Shown here: piece by piece, positions 6,057-33,683 of the stretch | Layout of the letters: every line of letters starts with the position of its first letter | Numbering within the stretch: position 1 is the stretch's first letter | From: Bacteroidota bacterium | GTDB lineage: Bacteria > Bacteroidota > Bacteroidia > Chitinophagales > LD1 | Assembly: GCA_947479455.1 (NCBI GenBank) | Contig: CANJZE010000008.1 | Span: forward strand, 66,798 to 130,797 | Length of the DNA stretch: 64,000 bases | Direction: 5' to 3' | The notes under the pieces: generated by a model | Told to the model about the DNA's origin: nothing | Seen by the model: the letters and a program-made list of their open reading frames with translations, nothing else | Database searches by the model: none | Translations under genes and position numbers: made by a program

Positions 6057-8294
6057 TTAATTAGAAATCAAATCATTCAAATTTAAGTTGTAGTAATCGA
6101 GAATATCTTTCAGTTCTTCGTAAGTATCAATTTTATTCATTGACAATTCTGAGAAGTCAACTACTCTTTCCAATTCTTTTTTGATAAGGTTACGCTCCAT
6201 TCCAAAATTTCCTTCACCGTCACTTATTTTCGGAACAACAACCAAATCGTGAATCACTGCATGAACTTTATCTTTATGATTTCTCAAAACCCTTCCACGC
6301 CTTTGAATAAATTGTCTTGGATTACCGGTGCTTGAACAGAATACTGCTAATTCAGAACGAGGAACATCAACCCCTTCATCCAAGCATTTCATAGAAGTTA
6401 AAACATGAACAGTTCCATTTTCAAAGTCATTTATTATTTCATTTCTGTTTTGAGTATTTGAAGTGTATTGTTTTACCAAGATTGAATCATTAGTATCTTT
6501 CACAATTCTGGTGTATTCGTTTATGAGATTCGTTTCCTCCTCATCTTCTTCATACTCATCCACCTTACTGTAATCAGGTTCTAATCCTTCGGGAACATAA
6601 ACCAAAGTGTATTTCAAATTTCCTCTACGTTTAAATTCATTTTTCATTATTTTTTTGAAAACATCCTTCTTGTTAAATGCCTTATGAATAATTCTCTTTC
6701 GCTTCAACAATAAATTCTCAACTTCCTTACACTCTTTGTAGCGACCAGTTTTAGCATCCAAATATGTTAAGAGTTGTTTTGAAATCTTGATATACTCTAC
6801 GAGTTCTTCATCAGTCAAATAAACAATGTGAGGGAAGTAAGTGTATTTACAAAGCCAGCCAACCTCCAACGCTTGCTTCATCGAATAAGAATATATGAAA
6901 GGTGCTTTATCATTGAAGAACGATTCAATAGCAGTGTTCCCCTCCAAATCATATTTCCTATTTGGTGTTGCAGACAAACCGATTCTTTTTTCTAAGTGAA
7001 TACTGGGTAACAGTTTTGAAATACTTGGCGAACCCATATTGTGAACTTCATCAGCAATCAATAATGTTTCCTTCGGCAACAACTTGAAATGACTTTGAAA
7101 TTTTGGTCTTGTCAGCGAAGCATAAGTTACAATAACAATAAAGTTTGTGTTCGTCAACTTCGTTGCCGTATTGAAGAAAGCAAGATTATCACTCCAATTT
7201 TCCTTTGAACTAACTGTAATGACATTACTAAAATTGAATTTAGCACATTCCTTTTTCCACTGCTCCAACAACGCTGTTGTTGGCACTGTAATAATTGCTT
7301 TGTAGGTATTTGTTTCTCTATAAAGATTCAGCAAACAATTAAGAGAAGTAATAGTTTTCCCTGTTCCAGTTGCCATTGCAAAAACTCCTTTGTAGCCATT
7401 GCCAACCCAAGCATCATAAGCAGCAATTTGATATTCTCTCGCTCCCTCAGGATATGGGAATCTTGGTTCTCTCTGAATTTCTTCAATGTGGGTAATCGCT
7501 TTCTCAAAACTTTTTCTCACTCCTTTGTTTTCTAACACCCGACTTTTTCTCTCAACCAATTCCTTTTCTTTTATCAACAACTCATTAAGTGAAGCGTTTC
7601 CAAATTCCTTTTTGATTGCTATCGAAACATCTTCAACCTCCAAATAATCTACAATGTCTGACTTGCCAGAAAAAACCATTTCGAAAAAACTGTTCTGTCT
7701 GTTTATCATTTTACTTGAACGGCTGTTTTCCCAACTAAGAAATCCGTCTAACTCTTCCAAATTTTCAAGTAACCCAAATGCAGTAAAATTGCAAGATGCT
7801 TTAAAGCCAACCGTATCAACTCCGTCCGAAAATGCTCCTGACTTGTAGTGTGCGATTCCTTTCCCTGTTTTCGGTTTGATGATTTTGATTTGAATTTTTT
7901 CATTTGCAATCAACCATGCAAGGCAATCAAAAAAATGTTTGCCGTAATCATTAAGCGTTCTTTTCAATTGCTTAATGTCTGTCAAGTCAATTGCAATATT
8001 TTCTATATCACCTTCTCTTCCTGCTTTGATTGCATCTCTATCTTCTTGCGACAAAACATTATTTACAACCATTCGCATTGTGCCTCCACTGTAAAGAAAA
8101 CTTGCAAAGCCAAGTGAGAGGACATTGATAGCTGCTGAACTAAAATAGCCAAGCAGCAAATCAAATTTTTTGCTGTTACATAAGCCGTCCATGTAAAATT
8201 GAATAGGTTCGCTTTCACTACCCGTTCTATATGACCTGTCTTCTGACCAATTGACTTGCTTAAGCATAGTTTGTTGTCGACTGTAATGATTCAC
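6057..8294 (-). CDS. PLD-like nuclease domain + SF2 (ResIII/DEAH) helicase, resembling a DNA phosphorothioation system restriction enzyme
   Basis: The N-terminal region has a PLD-like HxK (GIAHYKSGAFSDG). Helicase motifs are FAMATGTGKT, IADEVHN, LSATP and QRRGRVLR. The gene overlaps the upstream cysteine desulfurase stop (alternative start MLKQ at 8267). Confidence 0.75.
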   Translation of the reverse strand: MNHYSRQQTMLKQVNWSEDRSYRTGSESEPIQFYMDGLCNSKKFDLLLGYFSSAAINVLSLGFASFLYSGGTMRMVVNNVLSQEDRDAIKAGREGDIENIAIDLTDIKQLKRTLNDYGKHFFDCLAWLIANEKIQIKIIKPKTGKGIAHYKSGAFSDGVDTVGFKASCNFTAFGLLENLEELDGFLSWENSRSSKMINRQNSFFEMVFSGKSDIVDYLEVEDVSIAIKKEFGNASLNELLIKEKELVERKSRVLENKGVRKSFEKAITHIEEIQREPRFPYPEGAREYQIAAYDAWVGNGYKGVFAMATGTGKTITSLNCLLNLYRETNTYKAIITVPTTALLEQWKKECAKFNFSNVITVSSKENWSDNLAFFNTATKLTNTNFIVIVTYASLTRPKFQSHFKLLPKETLLIADEVHNMGSPSISKLLPSIHLEKRIGLSATPNRKYDLEGNTAIESFFNDKAPFIYSYSMKQALEVGWLCKYTYFPHIVYLTDEELVEYIKISKQLLTYLDAKTGRYKECKEVENLLLKRKRIIHKAFNKKDVFKKIMKNEFKRRGNLKYTLVYVPEGLEPDYSKVDEYEEDEEETNLINEYTRIVKDTNDSILVKQYTSNTQNRNEIINDFENGTVHVLTSMKCLDEGVDVPRSELAVFCSSTGNPRQFIQRRGRVLRNHKDKVHAVIHDLVVVPKISDGEGNFGMERNLIKKELERVVDFSELSMNKIDTYEELKDILDYYNLNLNDLISN

Positions 8295-9411
8295 TAAATA
8301 TTTTTAAAACTTCTTGCACTTCGCTTTCAGTATTAAATCTTCCCAACGAAAACCTAATTGAAGAAAACGCATCATCATCAGACAAAGCCATTGCTTTCAA
8401 AACATGAGAGGGCTCAATAATTGCTGAAGTGCAAGCTGAACCATTTGACACTGCAACATTTTTCATTTTCGCAATTAGCACATTTGCGTCTATACCAGGG
8501 AAACAAATATTGGTGACATTATACATTCTGTCTTGCGTTGAACCATTTACAAATGCCCTATGCAATTTTAGCAACTCACTTTCAAGTTCATCTCTGAGAA
8601 ATAAAATTCTATTTTTATCGTTTCCCATTTCTGCCTTTGCAATCTCACACGCTTTACCCATAGCGACAATTGCAGGAACGTTCAATGTCCCGCTTCGTAA
8701 TCCATTTTCATGTCCACCTCCATGTTGCAAAGCATCCAACTTGATTTTATTTTTCTTCAGCCCTCTTACATACAAAGCTCCAAGCCCTTTTGCGCCATAA
8801 AATTTATGAGCAGAAAAAGTCATTAGGTCAACACCCAATTCAGCTACATCTGTCGCAATTTTCCCAACTGCTTGCGTTGCATCGCTCATCAAAATCGCAC
8901 CTGCATTATGAGTAATATTTGCAATCTCTTTAACCGGTTGTAAAACACCTGTTTCATTATTTGCAAGCATCACACATACAAGAATTGAGTCGCTTCGCAA
9001 TTCGGTCTTCAAATTTTCCAAATTAATCAATCCGTCATTTTTCACAGGAAGATAACTCACATCAAAACCGATTGTTTCGAGATATTTACATGTATCGAGA
9101 ACGGCTTTATGTTCAGTCTCAACAGTAATAATATGTTTGCCTCTACTCTGATTTGCTAAAGCAAATCCTTTCAAAGCAAGATTGATACTTTCAGTAGCCC
9201 CAGAAGTGAAAATGATTTCAGTTGCATCGGCAGAAATTAAATCAGCAATTGTTTCCCGGGATTGGTCAACAGCTTTGGCACTGTTTAACCCAAATTGATG
9301 AATGCTGGAGGAGTTACCATATTGTTTTTCAAAATACGGTAACATCGCATCAAGAACTCTTGAATCTATTTCAGTAGTTGCATTATTATCAAGATAGATA
9401 ATTTCTTTCAT
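8260..9411 (-). CDS. Cysteine desulfurase (NifS/IscS class V aminotransferase; DndA/SspA-like)
   Basis: Motifs IYLDNNATT, FTSGATESINLA, SAHKFYGAKGLGALYV (PLP lysine) and SNGSACTS (catalytic Cys loop). It is the first gene of the minus-strand PT operon. Confidence 0.9.
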   Translation of the reverse strand: MKEIIYLDNNATTEIDSRVLDAMLPYFEKQYGNSSSIHQFGLNSAKAVDQSRETIADLISADATEIIFTSGATESINLALKGFALANQSRGKHIITVETEHKAVLDTCKYLETIGFDVSYLPVKNDGLINLENLKTELRSDSILVCVMLANNETGVLQPVKEIANITHNAGAILMSDATQAVGKIATDVAELGVDLMTFSAHKFYGAKGLGALYVRGLKKNKIKLDALQHGGGHENGLRSGTLNVPAIVAMGKACEIAKAEMGNDKNRILFLRDELESELLKLHRAFVNGSTQDRMYNVTNICFPGIDANVLIAKMKNVAVSNGSACTSAIIEPSHVLKAMALSDDDAFSSIRFSLGRFNTESEVQEVLKIFSESLQSTTNYA

Positions 9412-11005: not shown

Positions 11006-11032
11006 TGTTACAAGAATTGTAAGTAGGAGAGC

Positions 11033-12564: not shown

Positions 12565-14070
12565 CTATTTTGAAGTAAGGGCTGCAATTATTTTATCATA
12601 GCCTCCTATCATGTTATTCTCCGTAATATAGGGTTGTCTTGCATTCTTTGTATAGAGCAAGTTCGGATAGCCCTGTAATTCGGTTACTGCGTTGAGCCAA
12701 AGGTTCTTGCTGCGGGTAATAATAATTACAGCATCGCGCTTAATGGCTTCACGCACGAGGTGGAAGTTATATTCCTGTGTAGGGAGATATTTTTTACCAG
12801 CCCCAAATTCATTCTCGATAAATTTATGAGGAACGGATTTAAACTTCTTTGAAACGTATGGGAAGAACTGAATCTTACTTAGCTTTTTGCCAAGGACTTC
12901 TTTGCCAAAATATTCTTCTAATATCCGTAGCCTCTTTTTCCAATAATCCGAATATTCAGCGTATTCTTCATCCAAACAATACAAAGGACATTCGAACCGG
13001 TTACTGTGAGTTAGCTCTTTCAGAAACCAATCCCGATATTTTCCATAGAAGTCCTTCTCTTCTTCATTCTCGTCAAACCCCGGATTCAAAGTGAGCAAAA
13101 CAACTTTTGAATTGAATACATCTCCCATAAACGCAGCCGGAAAAATTTCCGTATGAATCTTAAACAATTCTGAATGTTCGTTCTTTAAAGAATTATTGAA
13201 CCGGTCAATTATTTTGGACTCGGCAGGATGAATAAAATAATCGCCTTGGTTGTAAGAGTTTAATTCAAACCAGGGATTTGTCATGGGAGATTTATTAAGG
13301 TAAATGATTTCGGTCAAATCTATTGCAAAGTTCATCAAGTGCTGTTTCCTTTTTTCAGAGGAATAAGCCAGTTCTTGCAAGTGCATATCCGGCACGTGCT
13401 TTTTGCAAAGTCTGAATTGTAACAGACTCATGCCCATTTCAGGAAGCCAATCTATATTCGCATCGCCTATTCGCTCAAAAATAGATTGGAGAAAACTAAA
13501 CAGATTGATATAGGTGTGAAGTAAAACATTCTCAGCTTTCTCTCTTCGAATCAATGAATTTTCGATTCGTTTATCATTAAAATCAATTCCGAAGAATCTT
13601 GATTGTATTTTGTATTTATCTTCACTTTTGCCGTTGTGTCTGTAATCAATATAGCTGGCAACTAAATTTTTAATGCTATAGGTCGGAATGACTTTGCTTT
13701 TAAGCAGAGAAATAAGTGTTTGAACCAATTCGTTTTCTGTTTTTCCATCGAACTGTTTAGAGATTTTGTAATTGACGATGTCCTCTGAAATCAGAAATGA
13801 CAACAAGTGAATCAAAGAACCTTTCAGATTATTTAGTATATGCTTATACCCTTCGGAACAATAATCTTGTTTGTATTCATTTATCAATTGTGGTAAGTCA
13901 TATCCGTGATAAACAATTTTTGCAAGAGTTCCTATTTTTTCATCCGGTGTGGTTGTCTTAAATTCATGGGAAAGGCTATCCAGAAGGGAACGCCAGTTGT
14001 CAACCTTTATAGTTTGCTCAACTACTTCTGTCAATCGCTCGGAGGGAGCTTCTAATTGTAATGTATTCAT
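12565..14070 (-). CDS. Hypothetical 501-aa protein; the C-terminal ~200 aa has a UDG-superfamily-like LNPG motif
   Basis: It is the first gene of the 14070->11033 operon. KVVLLTLNPGF resembles motif A of the MUG/SMUG families (GINPG/GMNPG), and later beta-strand-like segments are AVIIITRS and LLYTKNARQP. The N-terminal ~300 aa are helical with no recognised motif. Confidence 0.3.
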   Translation of the reverse strand: MNTLQLEAPSERLTEVVEQTIKVDNWRSLLDSLSHEFKTTTPDEKIGTLAKIVYHGYDLPQLINEYKQDYCSEGYKHILNNLKGSLIHLLSFLISEDIVNYKISKQFDGKTENELVQTLISLLKSKVIPTYSIKNLVASYIDYRHNGKSEDKYKIQSRFFGIDFNDKRIENSLIRREKAENVLLHTYINLFSFLQSIFERIGDANIDWLPEMGMSLLQFRLCKKHVPDMHLQELAYSSEKRKQHLMNFAIDLTEIIYLNKSPMTNPWFELNSYNQGDYFIHPAESKIIDRFNNSLKNEHSELFKIHTEIFPAAFMGDVFNSKVVLLTLNPGFDENEEEKDFYGKYRDWFLKELTHSNRFECPLYCLDEEYAEYSDYWKKRLRILEEYFGKEVLGKKLSKIQFFPYVSKKFKSVPHKFIENEFGAGKKYLPTQEYNFHLVREAIKRDAVIIITRSKNLWLNAVTELQGYPNLLYTKNARQPYITENNMIGGYDKIIAALTSK

Positions 14071-15484: not shown

Positions 15485-15588
15485 TATCTATTTATCACTT
15501 TCGATGGAAAGTAAGAGAACTTATTTCGCTACCGGAAGTTTTTTCGCAGGATACATCCTTCCACTCAATCTTATCTCTAATTTCAGGG

Positions 15589-15736
15589 AACATCTAAGGC
15601 GCGGAACATAGGAGGATAACAGCGTTGCTTGTCTCAGGTAGTTATCCGGTGCATTGAGAACCTGCTTTGAATGATTGCAATCTTTTGAGCAGCGTTGCTG
15701 CAAAATGCTTTTTAGCGGTTACCGGCCTTAGATGTT
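15589..15736 (+). ncRNA. Candidate structured RNA element immediately upstream of and overlapping the RT start
   Basis: A 12-bp perfect inverted repeat, aacatctaaggc (15589-15600) / gccttagatgtt (15725-15736), encloses hairpins ggataac...gttatcc (15614-15647) and gcagc-gtt-gctgc (15689-15701). The 10-mer cagcgttgct occurs twice (15620, 15690). Confidence 0.35.
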
Positions 15737-17510
15737 TTTTATGAGAACATACGCGACCTACTTCACCTACCCCAAAATCTTATTCGCACTCGTGGCGAAA
15801 AGGCTTGCCTTATCTACAAGAAGACACGATGAGATTTTTCTTAACAACATCAGCGTTCGCAGAACTCAAAAATTTGAACCATCGGATTCCGAGAAAATAC
15901 TTTCGGAAATATTCCCACCCCGAAATATTTGGGTCAGGGCGTCAAAGAAGAAGAGGATGAGCGCCACGGATAACCCTGAAAAAATCAGATTCCAAGAGTT
16001 ATTTACCACGGTGATGAAAGCGAGAGCAGAGGCACGGCAAACAGGTGTTGTTCCAGACTGGCTTAAAAAACTCAATTGCCTAATATCGGAAATCAGGGAA
16101 TCTATGATGGCGCCGGCATCGCTCGCAAAAATTAAACCAGCCGAACAAGCCTACCTTCTGAAAAATAAAAAAACGGCAGAACACCGCGTAATAGCCAGGT
16201 ATTCTCTTACCGACAGCATTATATCAAGCCTGGTGAGCGAATACCTAACGGACCATACAGATGCCGCACTGAACCGACCTTACTTCTCAGATAGCAGCTA
16301 CGCTTTCAGAAGCGCCAGACAGTCAAAGAAAGGCGGGCGGGTATTTAGTTATCATTCAGCCACCAGTGACATCGAGGAATACAGACGGATGAATATCGAC
16401 AAGGGAATCTACGTGGCTGAGGTTGACTTGGAGAAATTCTTTGACACTATTAACCACAGCGTCCTTTTGCATAGTCTCGAAAAAATGGTTGAACATTTCA
16501 GGTCGTCAGGGAAACCGCTGGACTATCGGGCGATTGAGATTGCCAGAAACTACCTCGGCTCTTTTAGCTTTAATCTGGATGCCTTGCCGAACGAAATTAC
16601 TGCCGAACGTGAGTTTAAATGGCCGGCTGCTAAACTGCAATCGTTAGGAGTGAATATTTATGAAGAGAAAGTTGGTGTTGCCCAAGGCGGTGCATTGTCA
16701 TGCTTTTTCGCCAACCTGATAATGCACGAGCTCGACAGCGTATTTCAAACGGGAGATTGCGACTTGAAATACCTCAGATACTGTGACGATTTTATCATCT
16801 TCCACACGAATCGCGACATGTGTCAACGGTATATTGACTTGGCGCGCAGGAAAATCCGGGAGCTGAAACTTATAGCTCACTCACCGGAGGACTACAATTT
16901 AGATGACTACAAAAAAAGAATACCGAAAAAGGGCGGCAGCAGGGATGTGAACGAATTCTGGAATTCTACGAAATCGAAAAACCCGTATAAATGGGGACAC
17001 TACGACACGGAGAACAGAATGAATGTGCCCTATGTTTCTTTTGTGGGTTATCAGCGTAGATATGATGGACTGCTCCGTGTCAGAAAGAAATCTTTAAAGA
17101 AAGAATACCAGAAGCAAAAGAATTTGGTGGACGTAGTGTTAGTGAGGATTGATTTGACCCTAAGTTCGAAAGTTAAACTCACCCGTAAGCAAATAATTTT
17201 TAGAACGGAGCAAAAGCTGATAGCGATGTCGGTTGGTAAGAAAAATGTCTTCAATGCAGGCAAGACGCTCGGATTCTGTTGGTGCAACGGATTCAAAGAG
17301 ATGAATTCGGGAGTGAAGAAATCCAATGCCCAGTTAAAATATTTAGACAGGTCACGCGAGAGACAACTGGGCCGGTTGAGAAATAAAATGAAGAGGCTGC
17401 CGCACAGAAAATCAAAGGGGCAAAAAGAGAAGAGTGTCATGCCTCTTCATAGTCCATTGACCAGCTACTTTACTTATTTCAATAAAACGGAAAAAGGACT
17501 CTCAGATTAA
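15732..17510 (+). CDS. Reverse transcriptase (stand-alone; group II-like/UG-DRT-like, class unresolved)
   Basis: RT motifs appear in order: RVIARYSLTDSIISSLV (1), YAFRS (2a), YVAEVDLEKFFDTINH (3/A), GVAQGGALSCFFANLIMHELD (4/B), YLRYCDDFIIF (5/C, YxDD), LKLIAH (6) and VSFVGYQ (7). The C-terminus is basic. The start codon is uncertain (ATG 15732 lies inside a 12-bp stem; the next ATG is at 15741). Confidence 0.9.
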   Translation: MFFMRTYATYFTYPKILFALVAKRLALSTRRHDEIFLNNISVRRTQKFEPSDSEKILSEIFPPRNIWVRASKKKRMSATDNPEKIRFQELFTTVMKARAEARQTGVVPDWLKKLNCLISEIRESMMAPASLAKIKPAEQAYLLKNKKTAEHRVIARYSLTDSIISSLVSEYLTDHTDAALNRPYFSDSSYAFRSARQSKKGGRVFSYHSATSDIEEYRRMNIDKGIYVAEVDLEKFFDTINHSVLLHSLEKMVEHFRSSGKPLDYRAIEIARNYLGSFSFNLDALPNEITAEREFKWPAAKLQSLGVNIYEEKVGVAQGGALSCFFANLIMHELDSVFQTGDCDLKYLRYCDDFIIFHTNRDMCQRYIDLARRKIRELKLIAHSPEDYNLDDYKKRIPKKGGSRDVNEFWNSTKSKNPYKWGHYDTENRMNVPYVSFVGYQRRYDGLLRVRKKSLKKEYQKQKNLVDVVLVRIDLTLSSKVKLTRKQIIFRTEQKLIAMSVGKKNVFNAGKTLGFCWCNGFKEMNSGVKKSNAQLKYLDRSRERQLGRLRNKMKRLPHRKSKGQKEKSVMPLHSPLTSYFTYFNKTEKGLSD

Positions 17511-18120
17511 GAGAGCCTTTCCCAAATTAGACCTGTCATGAACATCATTTATAGAGCAACGGAAGAGAAGTGTTTCATGTAAAGCTCCTAAGGATTACTT
17601 ACTCGCCCACACGCCTTTCCAACTGGGCGGACTAATGCAGGTGGGTAAATCGAATTGCCGTCAGCGCGTTGTTACAATTTTTGTAAGTGAGTTCATCTTC
17701 GGAATTTTCGTGAACCGTTGTCGGACGGTCAGCGCATGATTATTAAAGGCTTCGCCTGTGAAGTTCTTTACCGTCTCTACAAGAGTTAAATACTTTCATA
17801 ATTCTCCTTATACAGTGTTTAATCTTCCTTTGGAGCGAATAAGATGTGCAAGGGGGTTTGAAGTGGCTATGAAGTCGCGTTAGTGTCTTTACTGTCCGTT
17901 AAGACCTATAAAGTCCGTTAAGCGTATAAAGTGGTTTAAGATGTGTTAGTGTCTTTTCCTGTCTTAAAACCTTTAATGAATACAAACCCGTTTGAATGTC
18001 GTAAATATTTTATGCTCTGTCCAGCAGATTGTTTCGCTTTTTGGAAAAAATATTTTCGGTCGCATTAGGACGCTCCTGGTGAGCTCTGGCCGATTTATTA
18101 AGAGAATACCAGTATAAATC
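17511..18120 (+). other. ORF-free ~0.6 kb region downstream of the RT with hairpins and short direct repeats (candidate ncRNA or template region)
   Basis: The track shows no ORF of 60 aa or more on either strand in an otherwise tightly packed locus. Exact repeats are gttagtgtcttt (17879, 17945) and gtccgttaag (17894, 17913). Units tataaagtccgttaag and tataaagtggtttaag start at 17907 and 17925. Confidence 0.3.
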
Positions 18121-18178: not shown

Positions 18179-18784
18179 CTACTTGATTTTGTAACCGAGC
18201 TTCTTAGCTGCCTGTAAAAATGGGCGGATATTGTCAGCCGTCCACTGATTGCAAACTGCAATTGTTTTATCCTTCAGCTTGATAAGATGTTCCGGTTTAA
18301 AAAAATATCTGTCACGAGCACCTGAGAGTGAACGGGCAGAATCCTCGTCCATGAACGGAGCGAACCTTTTCAGCAACTCGTCAGGAAATGCTTCCTTGAG
18401 TAGCTTGTAGGTTATCTTTCCTTTTGAAGCGGCAACGTGGTCGGAAATTATCTGTCTTACCAGCGGCCCTTTCTTATACTCCGCACCACCATATTGAAAA
18501 GTTGAATTATCCCGGCCTTTCGATTTTGGTTCCGTCTGCCCACCTGCCTCTTCTAATTCTTCCGTTACCGGTTGTTCAGCTTCCGGTGCCTCGACAAGTG
18601 AGTAGGTTGCTTCCTTCCCTTTACCTTCCTGAGCTAAAAGACCTTCACCGGTCATTTTTTTCAAGGCGTTGACTAAAATAATTCCTTTTACTCCTGTTGC
18701 TTCGCCAATGGCTTTTGCATTGGAAGCTGGGTTATTGCGAAGAAACTCCGCAATTTTTTCCTGTGCTGTTTGTTTGTTTTTCAT
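18179..18784 (-). CDS. Putative winged-helix DNA-binding protein with a conserved-looking C-terminal domain
   Basis: The N-terminus IAEFLRNNPASNAKAIGEATGVKGIILVNALKKMTGEGLL is wHTH-like. An acidic linker follows. The C-terminus RYFFKPEHLIKLKDKTIAVCNQWTADNIRPFLQAAKKLGYKI resembles a domain often attached to restriction/modification proteins; no family name is assigned. Confidence 0.45.
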   Translation of the reverse strand: MKNKQTAQEKIAEFLRNNPASNAKAIGEATGVKGIILVNALKKMTGEGLLAQEGKGKEATYSLVEAPEAEQPVTEELEEAGGQTEPKSKGRDNSTFQYGGAEYKKGPLVRQIISDHVAASKGKITYKLLKEAFPDELLKRFAPFMDEDSARSLSGARDRYFFKPEHLIKLKDKTIAVCNQWTADNIRPFLQAAKKLGYKIK

Positions 18785-27308: not shown

Positions 27309-27883
27309 AAATGATAGAACAATTAAAAAAACACCCAGCCAATTCCAAGCTCGCAATGCTTATCAGACATGCCGACAGAGAGCGTATTCCCGATGGAGAG
27401 TTCGGCAACGAAATTCCCATCAATGAGAAAGGCAAATTGAATGCGATAGCTTTTGGTGAGAAGTTGCAAGGACAACAAGTAAAGAGGATTTTCACGAGTC
27501 CTATTTACCGGTGCATTCAAACAGCGGAACACATAAGTATTGGTTACAACAAGAAACTCGAAATAATAAGCACCAAGAGTCTCGGAGACCCTGGACTTCA
27601 TACCGAAGATGAATTGGTTGCAGGGGAATTTTATTTGAAGTATGGATTCGATGAACTATACAGAAGATTTATTGAAGGGGAAAGCATACCAGGTGTTACC
27701 AGTCCCTCTAATTATCACGCGGCAATGACCAAATTTCTAAAAGAGAACACAACCGAACCCGGTCTTACAATTTTTGTAACTCACGATTCATTGATTGCGT
27801 TCTATGATTTCTGTCTTAGCGGCACAGTTTATACAAAGGAGAATTGGGTAAAGTATCTTTCAGGTCTCATTTTAAACTACTAA
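27305..27883 (+). CDS. Histidine phosphatase (phosphoglycerate mutase-like) family protein
   Basis: LIRHADRE carries the RHG-type catalytic His motif, followed by SPIYRCIQTA and VTHDS. A 4-nt overlap with the upstream gene (ATGA) indicates coupling. Confidence 0.7.
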   Translation: MKMIEQLKKHPANSKLAMLIRHADRERIPDGEFGNEIPINEKGKLNAIAFGEKLQGQQVKRIFTSPIYRCIQTAEHISIGYNKKLEIISTKSLGDPGLHTEDELVAGEFYLKYGFDELYRRFIEGESIPGVTSPSNYHAAMTKFLKENTTEPGLTIFVTHDSLIAFYDFCLSGTVYTKENWVKYLSGLILNY

Positions 27884-33615: not shown

Positions 33616-33683
33616 TCTCCTTACAATTTTTGTAACTAAAGCATTGACTCAATAGTTGAGCAGGAGCCAGTAGAAAAAATTCG

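What the first reader, a model, noticed from the sequence alone, without database searches (positions are those of the whole stretch)
15589..15736. 12-bp closing stem that sequesters the annotated RT start codon, enclosing two hairpins and a duplicated 10-mer (retron a1/a2-like geometry)
Seen in the sequence:
- aacatctaaggc (15589-15600) is the exact reverse complement of gccttagatgtt (15725-15736). After a 1-nt bulge, 3 more base pairs are possible (cgg 15602-15604 / ccg 15722-15724).
- The right arm contains the ATG at 15732.
- Inside the enclosed ~125 nt are ggataac...gttatcc (15614-15620 / 15641-15647) and gcagc-gtt-gctgc (15689-15701). Each hairpin carries the same 10-mer cagcgttgct (15620-15629 and 15690-15699).
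- A weak Bacteroidetes -7-like box (TAATTTCA, 15579-15586) lies just upstream of the left arm.

Inference: this is a discrete ~150-nt RNA ending at the RT start. The geometry resembles retron a1/a2 repeats or the upstream ncRNAs of DRT2/DRT9, although the RT motifs are not retron-typical. It could alternatively be a translational control element.
Basis: seen in the sequence. Interest (0 to 1): 0.65.

Follow-up and report, generated by a model that had tools for sequence, protein, structure and literature searches.

The report
Structured RNA partner of UG39 reverse transcriptase
The inverted repeat is real and closes a conserved, roughly 150-nt folded RNA that always lies just upstream of an uncharacterised bacterial reverse transcriptase (group UG39), so it is most likely that enzyme's partner or template RNA, which I could not find described for this group.

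Summary

The downstream ORF is a Class 2 UG/Abi reverse transcriptase of group UG39 (PADLOC E 1.4e-136). Its predicted fold is closest to DRT9.

The same element lies directly upstream of the RT in all 12 close homologous loci (49-71% RT identity). There 92.5% of pair cells form pairs, 23 of 36 pairs show compensatory changes, and G·U pairs favour the RT strand.

A run of T follows the closing stem in every locus. Across the wider UG39 family, at least 67 of 145 loci have a long-range closing stem ending at a T-run before the RT.

Homologues start at ATG 15741, not 15732, and the stem-to-start distance varies from 4 to 26 nt, so start-codon sequestration is not conserved. The 10-mer duplication is specific to this window. 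It is not a retron.

Best reading: a discrete ncRNA (about 15589-15740) that scaffolds the RT and probably templates repetitive DNA synthesis, as in DRT9, DRT10 and DRT2. This is inferred, not shown. No Rfam family and no paper in the searchable library describes a UG39 ncRNA.

The parts
15557..15588 (+). Conserved promoter-like block upstream of the RNA (CC..TCA..CTCTA-NN-TTCA; includes TAATTTCA at 15578-15585).
   Evidence: Alignable in the window, L161, L162, L169, L164 and L165 (blastn). The TAnnTTCA box ends 3 nt before the 5' arm of P1. Promoter function is inferred. The sigma-70 scan found nothing here.
15589..15740 (+). Predicted UG39-associated ncRNA, about 152 nt: P1 closing helix, P2, variable P3, P4, P5 and a 3' U-tract.
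   Evidence: Model R1 hits one copy per locus, always directly 5' of the RT, in the window (E 5e-41) and in all 12 close homologous loci. On alignment A4, 92.5% of pair cells form pairs, against 25-44% when partners are slid, and 23 of 36 pairs show compensatory change. There are 32 G·U cells against 9 A·C cells, which favours the + strand. No Rfam match. Transcript ends are not mapped.
15589..15604 (+). P1 5' arm (12 bp, bulged G15601, then 3 bp).
   Evidence: It covaries: ACAUC/GAUGU, GUAUC/GAUAC, GUACC/GGUAC, CACC/GGUG, GUGAAGGCCGG/CCGGCCUUCAC. Eleven of 16 pairs show compensatory change. P1 is recovered in 11 of 11 single-sequence folds.
15722..15736 (+). P1 3' arm. It contains a non-conserved ATG at 15732.
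   Evidence: The ATG is missing or out of frame in L164-L167.
15614..15647 (+). P2 hairpin: GGAUAAC/GUUAUCC, a 5-nt bulge AGCGU, then inner helix UGCUUG/CAGGUA (15626-15631/15635-15640) with loop UCU.
   Evidence: Six of 7 outer pairs show compensatory change: GGAUGAC/GUCAUCC, GUAUAAC/GUUAUAC, GGACGAC/GUCGUCC, CCCGGC/GCUGGG, GAGUAAC/GUUACUC.
15673..15682 (+). P3 region: the perfect 10-nt palindrome GAUUGCAAUC, in a segment of variable sequence.
   Evidence: Different perfect palindromes occupy the same relative position in L162 (GGAUUUAAAUCC), L164 (GAUUUAAAUC) and L001 (GAUUCAAUUGAAUC), and L165 has AUUGCAAU. L161, L167 and L168 have an ordinary hairpin there. A role in RNA-RNA pairing is speculation.
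15689..15701 (+). P4 hairpin GCAGC-GUU-GCUGC.
   Evidence: Three of 5 pairs show compensatory change: UGCG/CGCA in L167, AGGU/ACCU in L001, GGC/GCC in L168.
15707..15716 (+). P5 mini-hairpin GCU-UUUU-AGC. The U-run 15709-15713 is nt 121-125 of the RNA and is the candidate template loop.
   Evidence: GC/GC is invariant and the third pair switches between U-A (8 sequences) and C-G (4 sequences). The loop is UUUU in most sequences, GUUU in two, and UAUU(C) in four. In DRT9 the templating U4 lies at nt 123-127 (PMC12483538, PMC12489045). A template role here is inferred.
15735..15740 (+). U-tract (6 T) directly after P1, giving a terminator-like 3' end.
   Evidence: A run of 4-8 T follows P1 in all 12 close loci. 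Across the family, at least 67 of 145 UG39 loci have a long-range stem ending at such a run. The terminator scan did not flag it because its loop limit is 8 nt.
15741..17510 (+). UG39 reverse transcriptase gene, 589 aa from the conserved start ATG 15741.
   Evidence: PADLOC RT_UG39 E 1.4e-136, next best Drt9 at 7e-25. Pfam RVT_1. Homologues start at MR/MK, which corresponds to window M4. The AlphaFold model has pLDDT 84 and its best PDB matches are DRT9 chains 9vma and 9nlv, E about 3e-12. An S-Y motif near the C-terminus is conserved (invariant in A1, at least 90% of 143 sequences in A5).

Best explanation
The inverted repeat is helix P1 of a roughly 150-nt non-coding RNA (about 15589-15740, + strand). 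This RNA is the partner of the UG39 reverse transcriptase encoded immediately downstream.

Proposed mechanism:
- Transcription starts at or near the 5' arm of P1, from the conserved upstream block.
- The RNA folds into P1 enclosing P2, a variable P3, P4 and a small hairpin P5 with a U-rich loop.
- P1 followed by the U-tract ends most transcripts, so the ncRNA accumulates. Occasional read-through provides the RT mRNA.
- By analogy with the characterised Class 2 UG/Abi systems (DRT9, DRT10, DRT2, DRT3), the RNA binds the RT as a scaffold.
- It presents a short single-stranded segment as a template that is copied repeatedly, probably primed from the conserved C-terminal tyrosine. The best candidate is the U-run of the P5 loop, 15709-15713. 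The resulting repetitive DNA would act in phage defence.

Shown here by computation: the structure, its conservation and covariation, its strand, its fixed position, the U-tract, and the RT's family and fold.

Inferred: the transcript ends, termination, RT binding, the identity of the template, and the product.
For: Structure and position:
- The structure is real and constrained. On alignment A4, 92.5% of pair cells form pairs against 25-44% in slid controls. Twenty-three of 36 pairs show compensatory change, and 0 of 500 shuffles reach the observed values.
- P1 is recovered in 11 of 11 alignment-free folds.
- RNAalifold on a plain MAFFT alignment gives the same P1, P2, P4 and P5.
- There are 32 G·U cells against 9 A·C cells, so the fold is on the RT strand.
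- There is one copy per locus, always directly 5' of the RT, in genomic neighbourhoods that otherwise differ.
- A U-run follows P1 in all 12 loci.

Family level:
- Ten of 10 sampled distant loci are RT_UG39.
- At least 67 of 145 loci have a 10-14 bp long-range stem ending at a T-run within 50 nt of the RT start, at p <= 0.01. Roughly 5 would be expected by chance.

The enzyme:
- The RT is UG39, which the literature treats as Class 2.
- Its best structural matches are DRT9.
- A C-terminal S-Y motif is conserved (invariant in A1, at least 90% of the 143 sequences in A5). DRT9 primes synthesis from conserved C-terminal tyrosines.

Resemblance to DRT9: the DRT9 ncRNA is 150-188 nt, lies upstream of the RT, has a U4 template at nt 123-127 and a dispensable 3' U-rich terminator region. 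Here U5 lies at nt 121-125 and a 3' U-tract follows.

Sister clade: 16 loci carry GAUUCGAUUC, a tandem pentamer, at a fixed -54 to -68 nt from the RT start. This looks like a repeat-type template.

Context: PbeA and SspA/DndA lie 6-9 kb away. Type III restriction-modification genes lie next to UG39 in L198-L201.
Against: - There are no expression, binding or product data.
- The template is not identified. Four of 12 sequences have UAUU(C/G) rather than a U-run in the P5 loop, and P5 is only 3-4 bp.
- Model R1 does not detect the RNAs of the distant UG39 clades. Only the architecture (closing stem plus U-run) is shared, not the sequence.
- Mestre et al. 2022 rated the defence role of UG39 as inconclusive and linked it to a VirE+PriCT-2 protein, which is absent from this window.
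- The covariation counts come from an alignment fitted to the model.
- A stem plus U-tract in a 5' leader is also what an attenuator looks like.
Confidence: 0.65

Rival explanations
1. A purely cis-acting leader. The structure is a transcription attenuator or translational control element in the 5' UTR of the RT mRNA. It sets RT expression through the P1 plus U-tract terminator or by occluding the initiation region, and it has no role acting on the RT in trans.
For: The element lies in the 5' leader on the RT strand. P1 ends 4-26 nt before the start codon and is followed by a U-run in all loci. In the window the 3' arm lies 4 nt from ATG 15741.
Against: The distance to the start codon is not conserved, and the ATG inside the arm is not the conserved start. 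I saw no conserved alternative (anti-terminator) pairing. The only alternative fold, 10-mer against 10-mer, is specific to this window. Four covarying helices and conserved loops across about 150 nt are more than a terminator needs. The experimentally characterised Class 2 UG RTs described in the papers read here (DRT2, DRT3, DRT9, DRT10) use their adjacent ncRNA in trans. The two roles are not exclusive.
Confidence: 0.2
2. A DRT2-like looped template. P1 closes a loop that the RT copies by rolling-circle reverse transcription, producing concatemeric cDNA that encodes a never-ending ORF (Neo-like).
For: P1 brings the 5' and 3' ends of a stretch of about 117 nt together. Drt2 is among the next-best PADLOC and NCBIfam hits. 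DRT2 is the ninth-best structural match.
Against: No stop-free frame spans the enclosed region in several homologues. The longest open stretch is 28 codons in L001 and 27 in L161, counting both strands. The length of the element varies from 128 to 205 nt through insertion of whole hairpins. The Drt2 equivalog scores 57 bits against a cut-off of 390.
Confidence: 0.06
3. A retron msr-msd RNA, in which the 12-bp stem is the a1/a2 repeat pair and the RT makes branched msDNA.
For: The geometry fits: inverted repeats flank a structured RNA directly upstream of an RT on the same strand.
Against: The RT is UG39, not a retron type. The retron St85 model scores 38 bits against a cut-off of 235, and Ec67 scores 20 against 450. 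The protein is 589 aa with a long conserved N-terminal extension. No Rfam family matches at E <= 10. No long msd-like hairpin is conserved.
Confidence: 0.03
4. A chance inverted repeat, or a DNA-level palindrome such as a protein-binding or recombination site, with no RNA function.
For: The single-sequence z-score is only -3.0. A different palindromic repeat family does occur in this genome.
Against: Both arms change together in homologues while pairing is kept. The excess of G·U over A·C shows that the constraint acts on one strand. The inner helices covary as well.
Confidence: 0.01

Closest known systems
DRT9 (UG28) RT-ncRNA system
   Same: - The RT has no fused domains and a structured ncRNA of 150-190 nt lies directly upstream on the same strand.
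- There is a U-rich loop about 120-127 nt from the 5' end and a second U-rich stretch at the 3' end, linked to termination in DRT9.
- C-terminal tyrosine(s) are conserved.
- UG39 was originally binned inside UG28 as UG28b.
- DRT9 chains are the best structural matches to the modelled RT.
   Different: - The RT is about 100 aa longer and only about 15% identical in the structural alignment. Sequence search against the DRT9 chain gives only E 2.5e-5.
- The active site is YCDD rather than YADD.
- Here the 5' and 3' ends form a long Watson-Crick helix. In SenDRT9 the ends touch without base pairing, and a separate SL6 acts as terminator.
- The U-run is not universal here (4 of 12 have UAUU).
- No similarity at the level of ncRNA sequence was established.
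DRT10 (UG17) and telomerase-like repeat synthesis
   Same: It is a Class 2 UG RT with an upstream ncRNA of about 140 nt, whose short template loop lies next to a stem that sets the template boundary. The tandem GAUUCGAUUC in the sister-clade UG39 RNAs resembles such repeat-flanked templates.
   Different: No SLATT partner is present. No A-B-A' repeat is evident in this window's clade. The RT_UG17 profile is only a weak hit (2e-15).
DRT2 (UG2) looped ncRNA
   Same: An upstream ncRNA in which a stem brings together the two ends of a stretch of about 120 nt. The ncRNA sequence is specific to each group within one RT family, as Mestre et al. reported for UG2.
   Different: There is no conserved stop-free frame. 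The Drt2 equivalog scores far below its cut-off.
Retron msr-msd with a1/a2 repeats
   Same: Terminal inverted repeats close an ncRNA that lies upstream of its RT.
   Different: The RT family is wrong, no msr model matches, and there is no msd-type hairpin.

Membership tests
Class 2 UG/Abi RT-associated ncRNA (the kind that includes the DRT2, DRT9 and DRT10 RNAs) | The adjacent gene is a Class 2 UG/Abi reverse transcriptase without fused effector domains. | tested here: met
   RT_UG39 E 1.4e-136. Only RVT_1 is found in Pfam. UG39 is described under Class 2 in PMC9226505.
Class 2 UG/Abi RT-associated ncRNA (the kind that includes the DRT2, DRT9 and DRT10 RNAs) | A conserved non-coding stretch lies next to the RT on the same strand, with a conserved secondary structure. 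| tested here: met
   There is an intergenic gap upstream of the RT in all close loci: about 230-680 nt between called genes, 257 nt in the window. Model R1 hits sit directly 5' of the RT. Covariation is shown and de novo folds.
Class 2 UG/Abi RT-associated ncRNA (the kind that includes the DRT2, DRT9 and DRT10 RNAs) | The RNA is abundant, binds the RT and is required for function. | not testable with these tools
   This needs RNA-seq, RIP-seq and genetics.
Class 2 UG/Abi RT-associated ncRNA (the kind that includes the DRT2, DRT9 and DRT10 RNAs) | It contains a short repetitive or repeat-flanked template that is reverse transcribed iteratively. | tested here: inconclusive
   The P5 loop is UUUU(U) or GUUU in 8 of 12 sequences and UAUU in 4 of 12. 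The sister clade has GAUUCGAUUC. No product data exist.
DRT9 (UG28) system | The RT is classified as UG28/Drt9. | tested here: not met
   The Drt9 profile is second best at 7e-25, against 1.4e-136 for UG39. Mestre et al. separate UG39 from UG28.
DRT9 (UG28) system | A universally conserved poly-U template loop in the ncRNA. | tested here: inconclusive
   The window has U5 at 15709-15713 (nt 121-125), but the run is not invariant across the clade.
DRT9 (UG28) system | The ncRNA matches the DRT9 ncRNA covariance model. | not tested
Rfam holds nothing that matches.
UG39 system as defined by Mestre et al. 2022 | Association with a VirE + PriCT-2 (PrimPol-like) protein, cluster 64. | tested here: not met
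   None of the 10 large ORFs scanned between 9.5 and 21.5 kb has such a domain. A PF08800 (BT4734-like_N) gene, which I take to be Pfam's former VirE N-terminal family (from memory, not checked), does lie divergently upstream of the UG39 RT in Pedobacter mucosus, L198.
Retron | Retron-type RT. | tested here: not met
   NCBIfam retron_St85_RT scores 38 bits against a cut-off of 235. retron_Ec67 scores 20 against 450.
Retron | An msr/msd RNA with a1/a2 repeats, a branching G and an msd hairpin. | tested here: inconclusive
   Terminal inverted repeats are present. No Rfam family matches at E <= 10 and no long msd-like hairpin is conserved. The branching G cannot be assessed from sequence.
DRT2 (UG2) / Neo | A stop-free reading frame runs around the looped template. 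| tested here: not met
   The longest open stretches are 27-28 codons in L161 and L001, on either strand.
Intrinsic terminator | A G+C-rich stem immediately followed by a U-run. | tested here: inconclusive
   A 12+3 bp stem is followed by U6, and this is conserved. The 'loop', however, is a 117-nt multi-helix domain, so the consensus scan does not call it. Termination needs 3'-end mapping.

The most novel reading that the evidence does not exclude
UG39 RT plus this RNA is a new telomerase-like, protein-primed repeat-DNA synthesis system. The long helix joining the 5' and 3' ends doubles as the transcription terminator and as the structural clamp or template boundary. Different UG39 clades would carry different short templates: a U-run in this clade, giving a poly-dA-like product, and GAUUCGAUUC in the sister clade, giving pentamer repeats. 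Palindromic P3 segments would pair two RNAs to drive oligomerisation of the complex.
Probability: 0.3. Interest if true: 0.75.

Novelty: new member of a known kind. Interest (0 to 1): 0.6.

Why it matters
UG39 is one of the Class 2 UG/Abi reverse transcriptase groups whose function is unknown. Its defence role was rated inconclusive and no RNA partner was reported (PMC9226505).

Recent work on DRT2, DRT9, DRT10 and DRT3 predicts that further Class 2 enzymes use adjacent ncRNAs to template repetitive DNA, and it links this chemistry to the origin of telomerase.

A defined, covarying ncRNA gives experimenters what they need to reconstitute a UG39 system: its ends, its helices, a candidate template loop, and clade-specific variants across hundreds of loci. 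They could then find out what DNA the enzyme makes.

There is also an annotation point. The true RT start is 15741, and one gene call for this protein (P0001, 468 aa) omits about 120 conserved N-terminal residues.

Tried and rejected
- MAFFT alignments of all 11 elements (A2) and of 8 elements (A6) misalign P1 in the divergent members and in those with insertions. They were not used for pair counts. The counts come from the model-fitted alignment A4, with that caveat, backed by alignment-free folds and by RNAalifold on the five-sequence MAFFT alignment.
Homology between this clade's RNA and those of distant UG39 clades therefore remains untested. Model R1 does not find them.
- A direct comparison with a DRT9 ncRNA could not be made. 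No sequence is given in the papers or in the supplements that are held. The weak RT hits L152-L160 are enzymes of about 330-350 aa, not DRT9.
- I looked by eye for a pseudoknot between the P2 bulge and other segments and found nothing consistent.
- The test for a Neo-like ORF was negative.
- There are no tRNA or tmRNA genes in the window, and no sigma-70 promoter call at the element.
- UG39 is almost absent from viral contigs: one full-length hit. A phage origin was therefore not pursued.

Full report
**Observation.**
- A 12-nt perfect inverted repeat lies at 15589-15600 and 15725-15736. It extends by 3 bp past a bulged G.
- The hairpin GGATAAC/GTTATCC is at 15614-15620 and 15641-15647.
- The hairpin GCAGC-GTT-GCTGC is at 15689-15701.
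- The 10-mer CAGCGTTGCT occurs twice.
- TAATTTCA is at 15578-15585, one base left of the stated position.
- The region folds better than shuffles (-55.2 kcal/mol, z = -3.0).

**The gene downstream.** ORF 15732-17510 carries RVT_1. It is an RT of group UG39 (PADLOC 1.4e-136; next best is Drt9 at 7e-25).

UG39 was split off from UG28/DRT9 as 'UG28b'. It is discussed under Class 2 UG/Abi RTs, was linked to a VirE+PriCT-2 protein, and had an inconclusive defence score. No ncRNA was reported for it. ncRNAs were reported for UG2, UG3+UG8, UG28 and UG27 (PMC9226505).

An alignment of 24 homologues shows that they begin at MR/MK, which corresponds to window residue M4. The real start is therefore most likely ATG 15741. 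One gene call for this protein (P0001, 468 aa) omits about 120 conserved N-terminal residues.

The AlphaFold model (pLDDT 84) matches DRT9 cryo-EM chains best (E about 3e-12). Group II intron RTs and DRT2 follow. At the sequence level the PDB hits are weak: DRT2 at 9e-7 and DRT9 at 2.5e-5. All NCBIfam RT models score far below their cut-offs: Drt2 57 against 390, retron St85 38 against 235.

**Homologous loci.** I fetched 11 further close loci, with RTs 49-71% identical, and about 160 more distant ones. Every close locus has an intergenic gap upstream of the RT, about 230-680 nt between called genes.

Compensatory changes in the closing stem are visible in the raw sequences:
- ACAUCUAAGGC / GCCUUAGAUGU
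- GUAUC.. / ..GAUAC
- GUACC.. / ..GGUAC
- CACC.. / ..GGUG
- GUGAAGGCCGG / CCGGCCUUCAC
- AUCCG(u)GGGCCGG / CCGGCCCCGGAU

RNAalifold on a plain MAFFT alignment of five sequences returns P1, P2 (outer and inner helix), P4 and a 3-bp hairpin P5, GCU-UUUU-AGC.

A covariance model built from these five finds one hit per locus in all 12 loci, always directly 5' of the RT. It finds nothing in the distant loci.

On the 12-sequence model alignment:
- 92.5% of pair cells form pairs, against 25-44% when partners are slid by 1-3 columns.
- Twenty-three of 36 pairs show changes on both sides.
- No shuffle out of 500 reaches the observed values.

That alignment is fitted to the structure, so I checked without one. 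Single-sequence folds recover P1 in 11 of 11 sequences, and P2, P4 and P5 in most. G·U cells outnumber A·C cells 32 to 9, so the constraint acts on the RT strand, that is, on an RNA.

**What is not conserved.**
- The 10-mer duplication occurs only in the window. The window's own minimum-energy fold pairs the two copies (-51.2 kcal/mol) and so competes with the conserved fold (-43.7 kcal/mol when enforced). I treat this as specific to this window.
- The ATG inside the 3' arm is absent or out of frame in L164-L167.
- The gap between P1 and the RT start ranges from 4 to 26 nt.
- Sequestration of the start codon is therefore not the conserved function.

**What else is conserved.**
- A run of 4-8 T follows P1 in all 12 loci.
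- An upstream block containing TAnnTTCA ends 3 nt before P1 in the six closest loci.
- L164-L166 carry an extra hairpin after the 5' arm of P1.
- P3 is variable. In five distinct sequences it is a different perfect palindrome at the same relative position.

**Family level.** Ten of 10 sampled distant loci are RT_UG39 (E 1e-146 to 1e-191). Of 145 loci with 300 nt of upstream sequence, 104 have a T-run within 50 nt of the RT start. In 67 of these, the 14 nt before that run pair with a site 110-220 nt upstream (10-14 bp) at p <= 0.01 against shuffles. About 5 such cases would be expected by chance.

The internal sequences are specific to each clade, as Mestre et al. found for UG2. One clade of 16 loci carries GAUUCGAUUC at a fixed -54 to -68 nt from the RT start.

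**Comparison with what is known.**
- The DRT9 ncRNA is 150-188 nt and lies upstream of the RT. It has six stem-loops, a U4 template at nt 123-127, a dispensable 3' U-rich region and a terminator SL6. RNA-RNA contacts build its hexamer, and synthesis is primed from C-terminal tyrosines.
- In the window, U5 lies at nt 121-125 of the predicted RNA, a 3' U-tract follows P1, and the RT family has a conserved C-terminal S-Y motif (invariant in the 25-sequence A1, at least 90% of the 143 sequences in A5).
- DRT10 and DRT2 use repeat-flanked or looped templates. The field now expects other Class 2 RTs to do likewise.
- No Rfam family matches, even at E <= 10.
- Full-text searches found no paper describing a UG39 ncRNA. 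Subscription-only literature could not be searched.

**Explanations.** I rank them as follows.
1. A trans-acting scaffold and template ncRNA of the UG39 RT (0.65).
2. A purely cis-acting leader or attenuator (0.2). This is not exclusive with the first.
3. DRT2-like rolling-circle gene synthesis (0.06). There is no conserved stop-free frame, and lengths vary from 128 to 205 nt.
4. A retron (0.03).
5. Chance, or a DNA palindrome (0.01).

**Context.** PbeA (6057-8294) and SspA/DndA (8260-9411) lie nearby. Relatives have an McrA-like HNH gene in the same neighbourhood. Other UG39 loci lie beside type III restriction-modification genes. Only one full-length UG39 hit was found in 2.9 million viral contigs. 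This fits a chromosomal defence-island gene.

**Verdict.** The core of the interpretation, an upstream ncRNA of the DRT2/DRT9 type, is supported by strong comparative evidence. The start-codon, 10-mer and retron elements are not supported. It is a new member of a known kind: an ncRNA partner, which I could not find described, for an uncharacterised Class 2 UG/Abi RT group.

Noticed in passing
window 11007-11023, 17671-17687, 27764-27780, 33620-33636; also L161 2726, L162 2729/4874/6386, L166 5272: The palindromic motif GTTACAA-N3-TTGTAAG occurs 4 times in the window, where 0.06 would be expected. At least two copies sit just after stop codons. It recurs near the RT loci of relatives. It looks like a lineage-specific REP-like or terminator hairpin.
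   Followed up: partly
window 17511-18120, especially 17840-17960: About 600 nt between the convergent RT gene and the 18179-18784 gene contain no ORF longer than 49 aa. The stretch holds short direct repeats: TATAAAGTCCGTTAAG-like units spaced 18-19 nt apart, and GTTAGTGTCTTT twice. Parts are 71-76% similar to non-coding stretches near the RT in L166, L169 and L165. It is unexplained. It could be iteron-like or arm-type sites, or a second RNA.
   Followed up: partly
window 18179-18784 (-): A 201-aa protein has an N-terminal winged-helix domain (weak MarR/ArsR-like hits) and an unknown C-terminal domain. It also has a weak PADLOC PDC-S57 hit. Homologues lie within a few kb of the RT in L162, L167, L001, L168 and L170, in varying position and orientation. 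It may be a conserved partner or regulator, or this may simply be synteny.
   Followed up: partly
window 6057-9411 and 12565-14070: There are defence genes near the RT. PbeA (E = 0) and SspA/DndA cysteine desulfurase (8e-160) point to a phosphorothioation-type system. The 501-aa ORF 12565-14070 has a weak match to the Brig1 anti-phage DNA glycosylase (2e-5, below its cut-off).
   Followed up: no
L002, L003, L006-L012, L016, L061, L081, L083, L084, L087, L089: -54 to -68 nt from the RT start: The ncRNAs of a sister UG39 clade carry a tandem pentamer, GAUUCGAUUC, at a fixed position between two hairpins. It resembles the repeat-type templates of DRT10 and DRT3.
   Followed up: partly
window 15673-15682 and the equivalent position in L162, L164, L165, L001: The P3 segment is a different perfect palindrome of 8-14 nt in several homologues. 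A hairpin with a 0-2 nt loop cannot form, so pairing between two RNA molecules is conceivable, by analogy with the RNA-RNA contacts in DRT9. Each case is statistically weak on its own.
   Followed up: partly
L170 2559-2698 versus L171 1619-1765: Two contigs encode the identical RT protein (P0010). L170 lacks 20 nt that form the 5' strand of P2 in L171. This could be natural variation, decay of the RNA, or an assembly artefact.
   Followed up: no
window 15732-16104: One gene call for this RT in the protein collection is a 468-aa version (P0001) that omits about 120 N-terminal residues. These residues are conserved across the family. P0010 and P0011 are truncated in the same way.
   Followed up: yes
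L198 4803-5774 (Pedobacter mucosus): A PF08800 (BT4734-like_N) gene lies divergently upstream of the UG39 RT, with 227 nt between them. I take PF08800 to be Pfam's former VirE N-terminal family (from memory, not checked). That would match the published UG39 association, which is absent from this window's clade.
   Followed up: no
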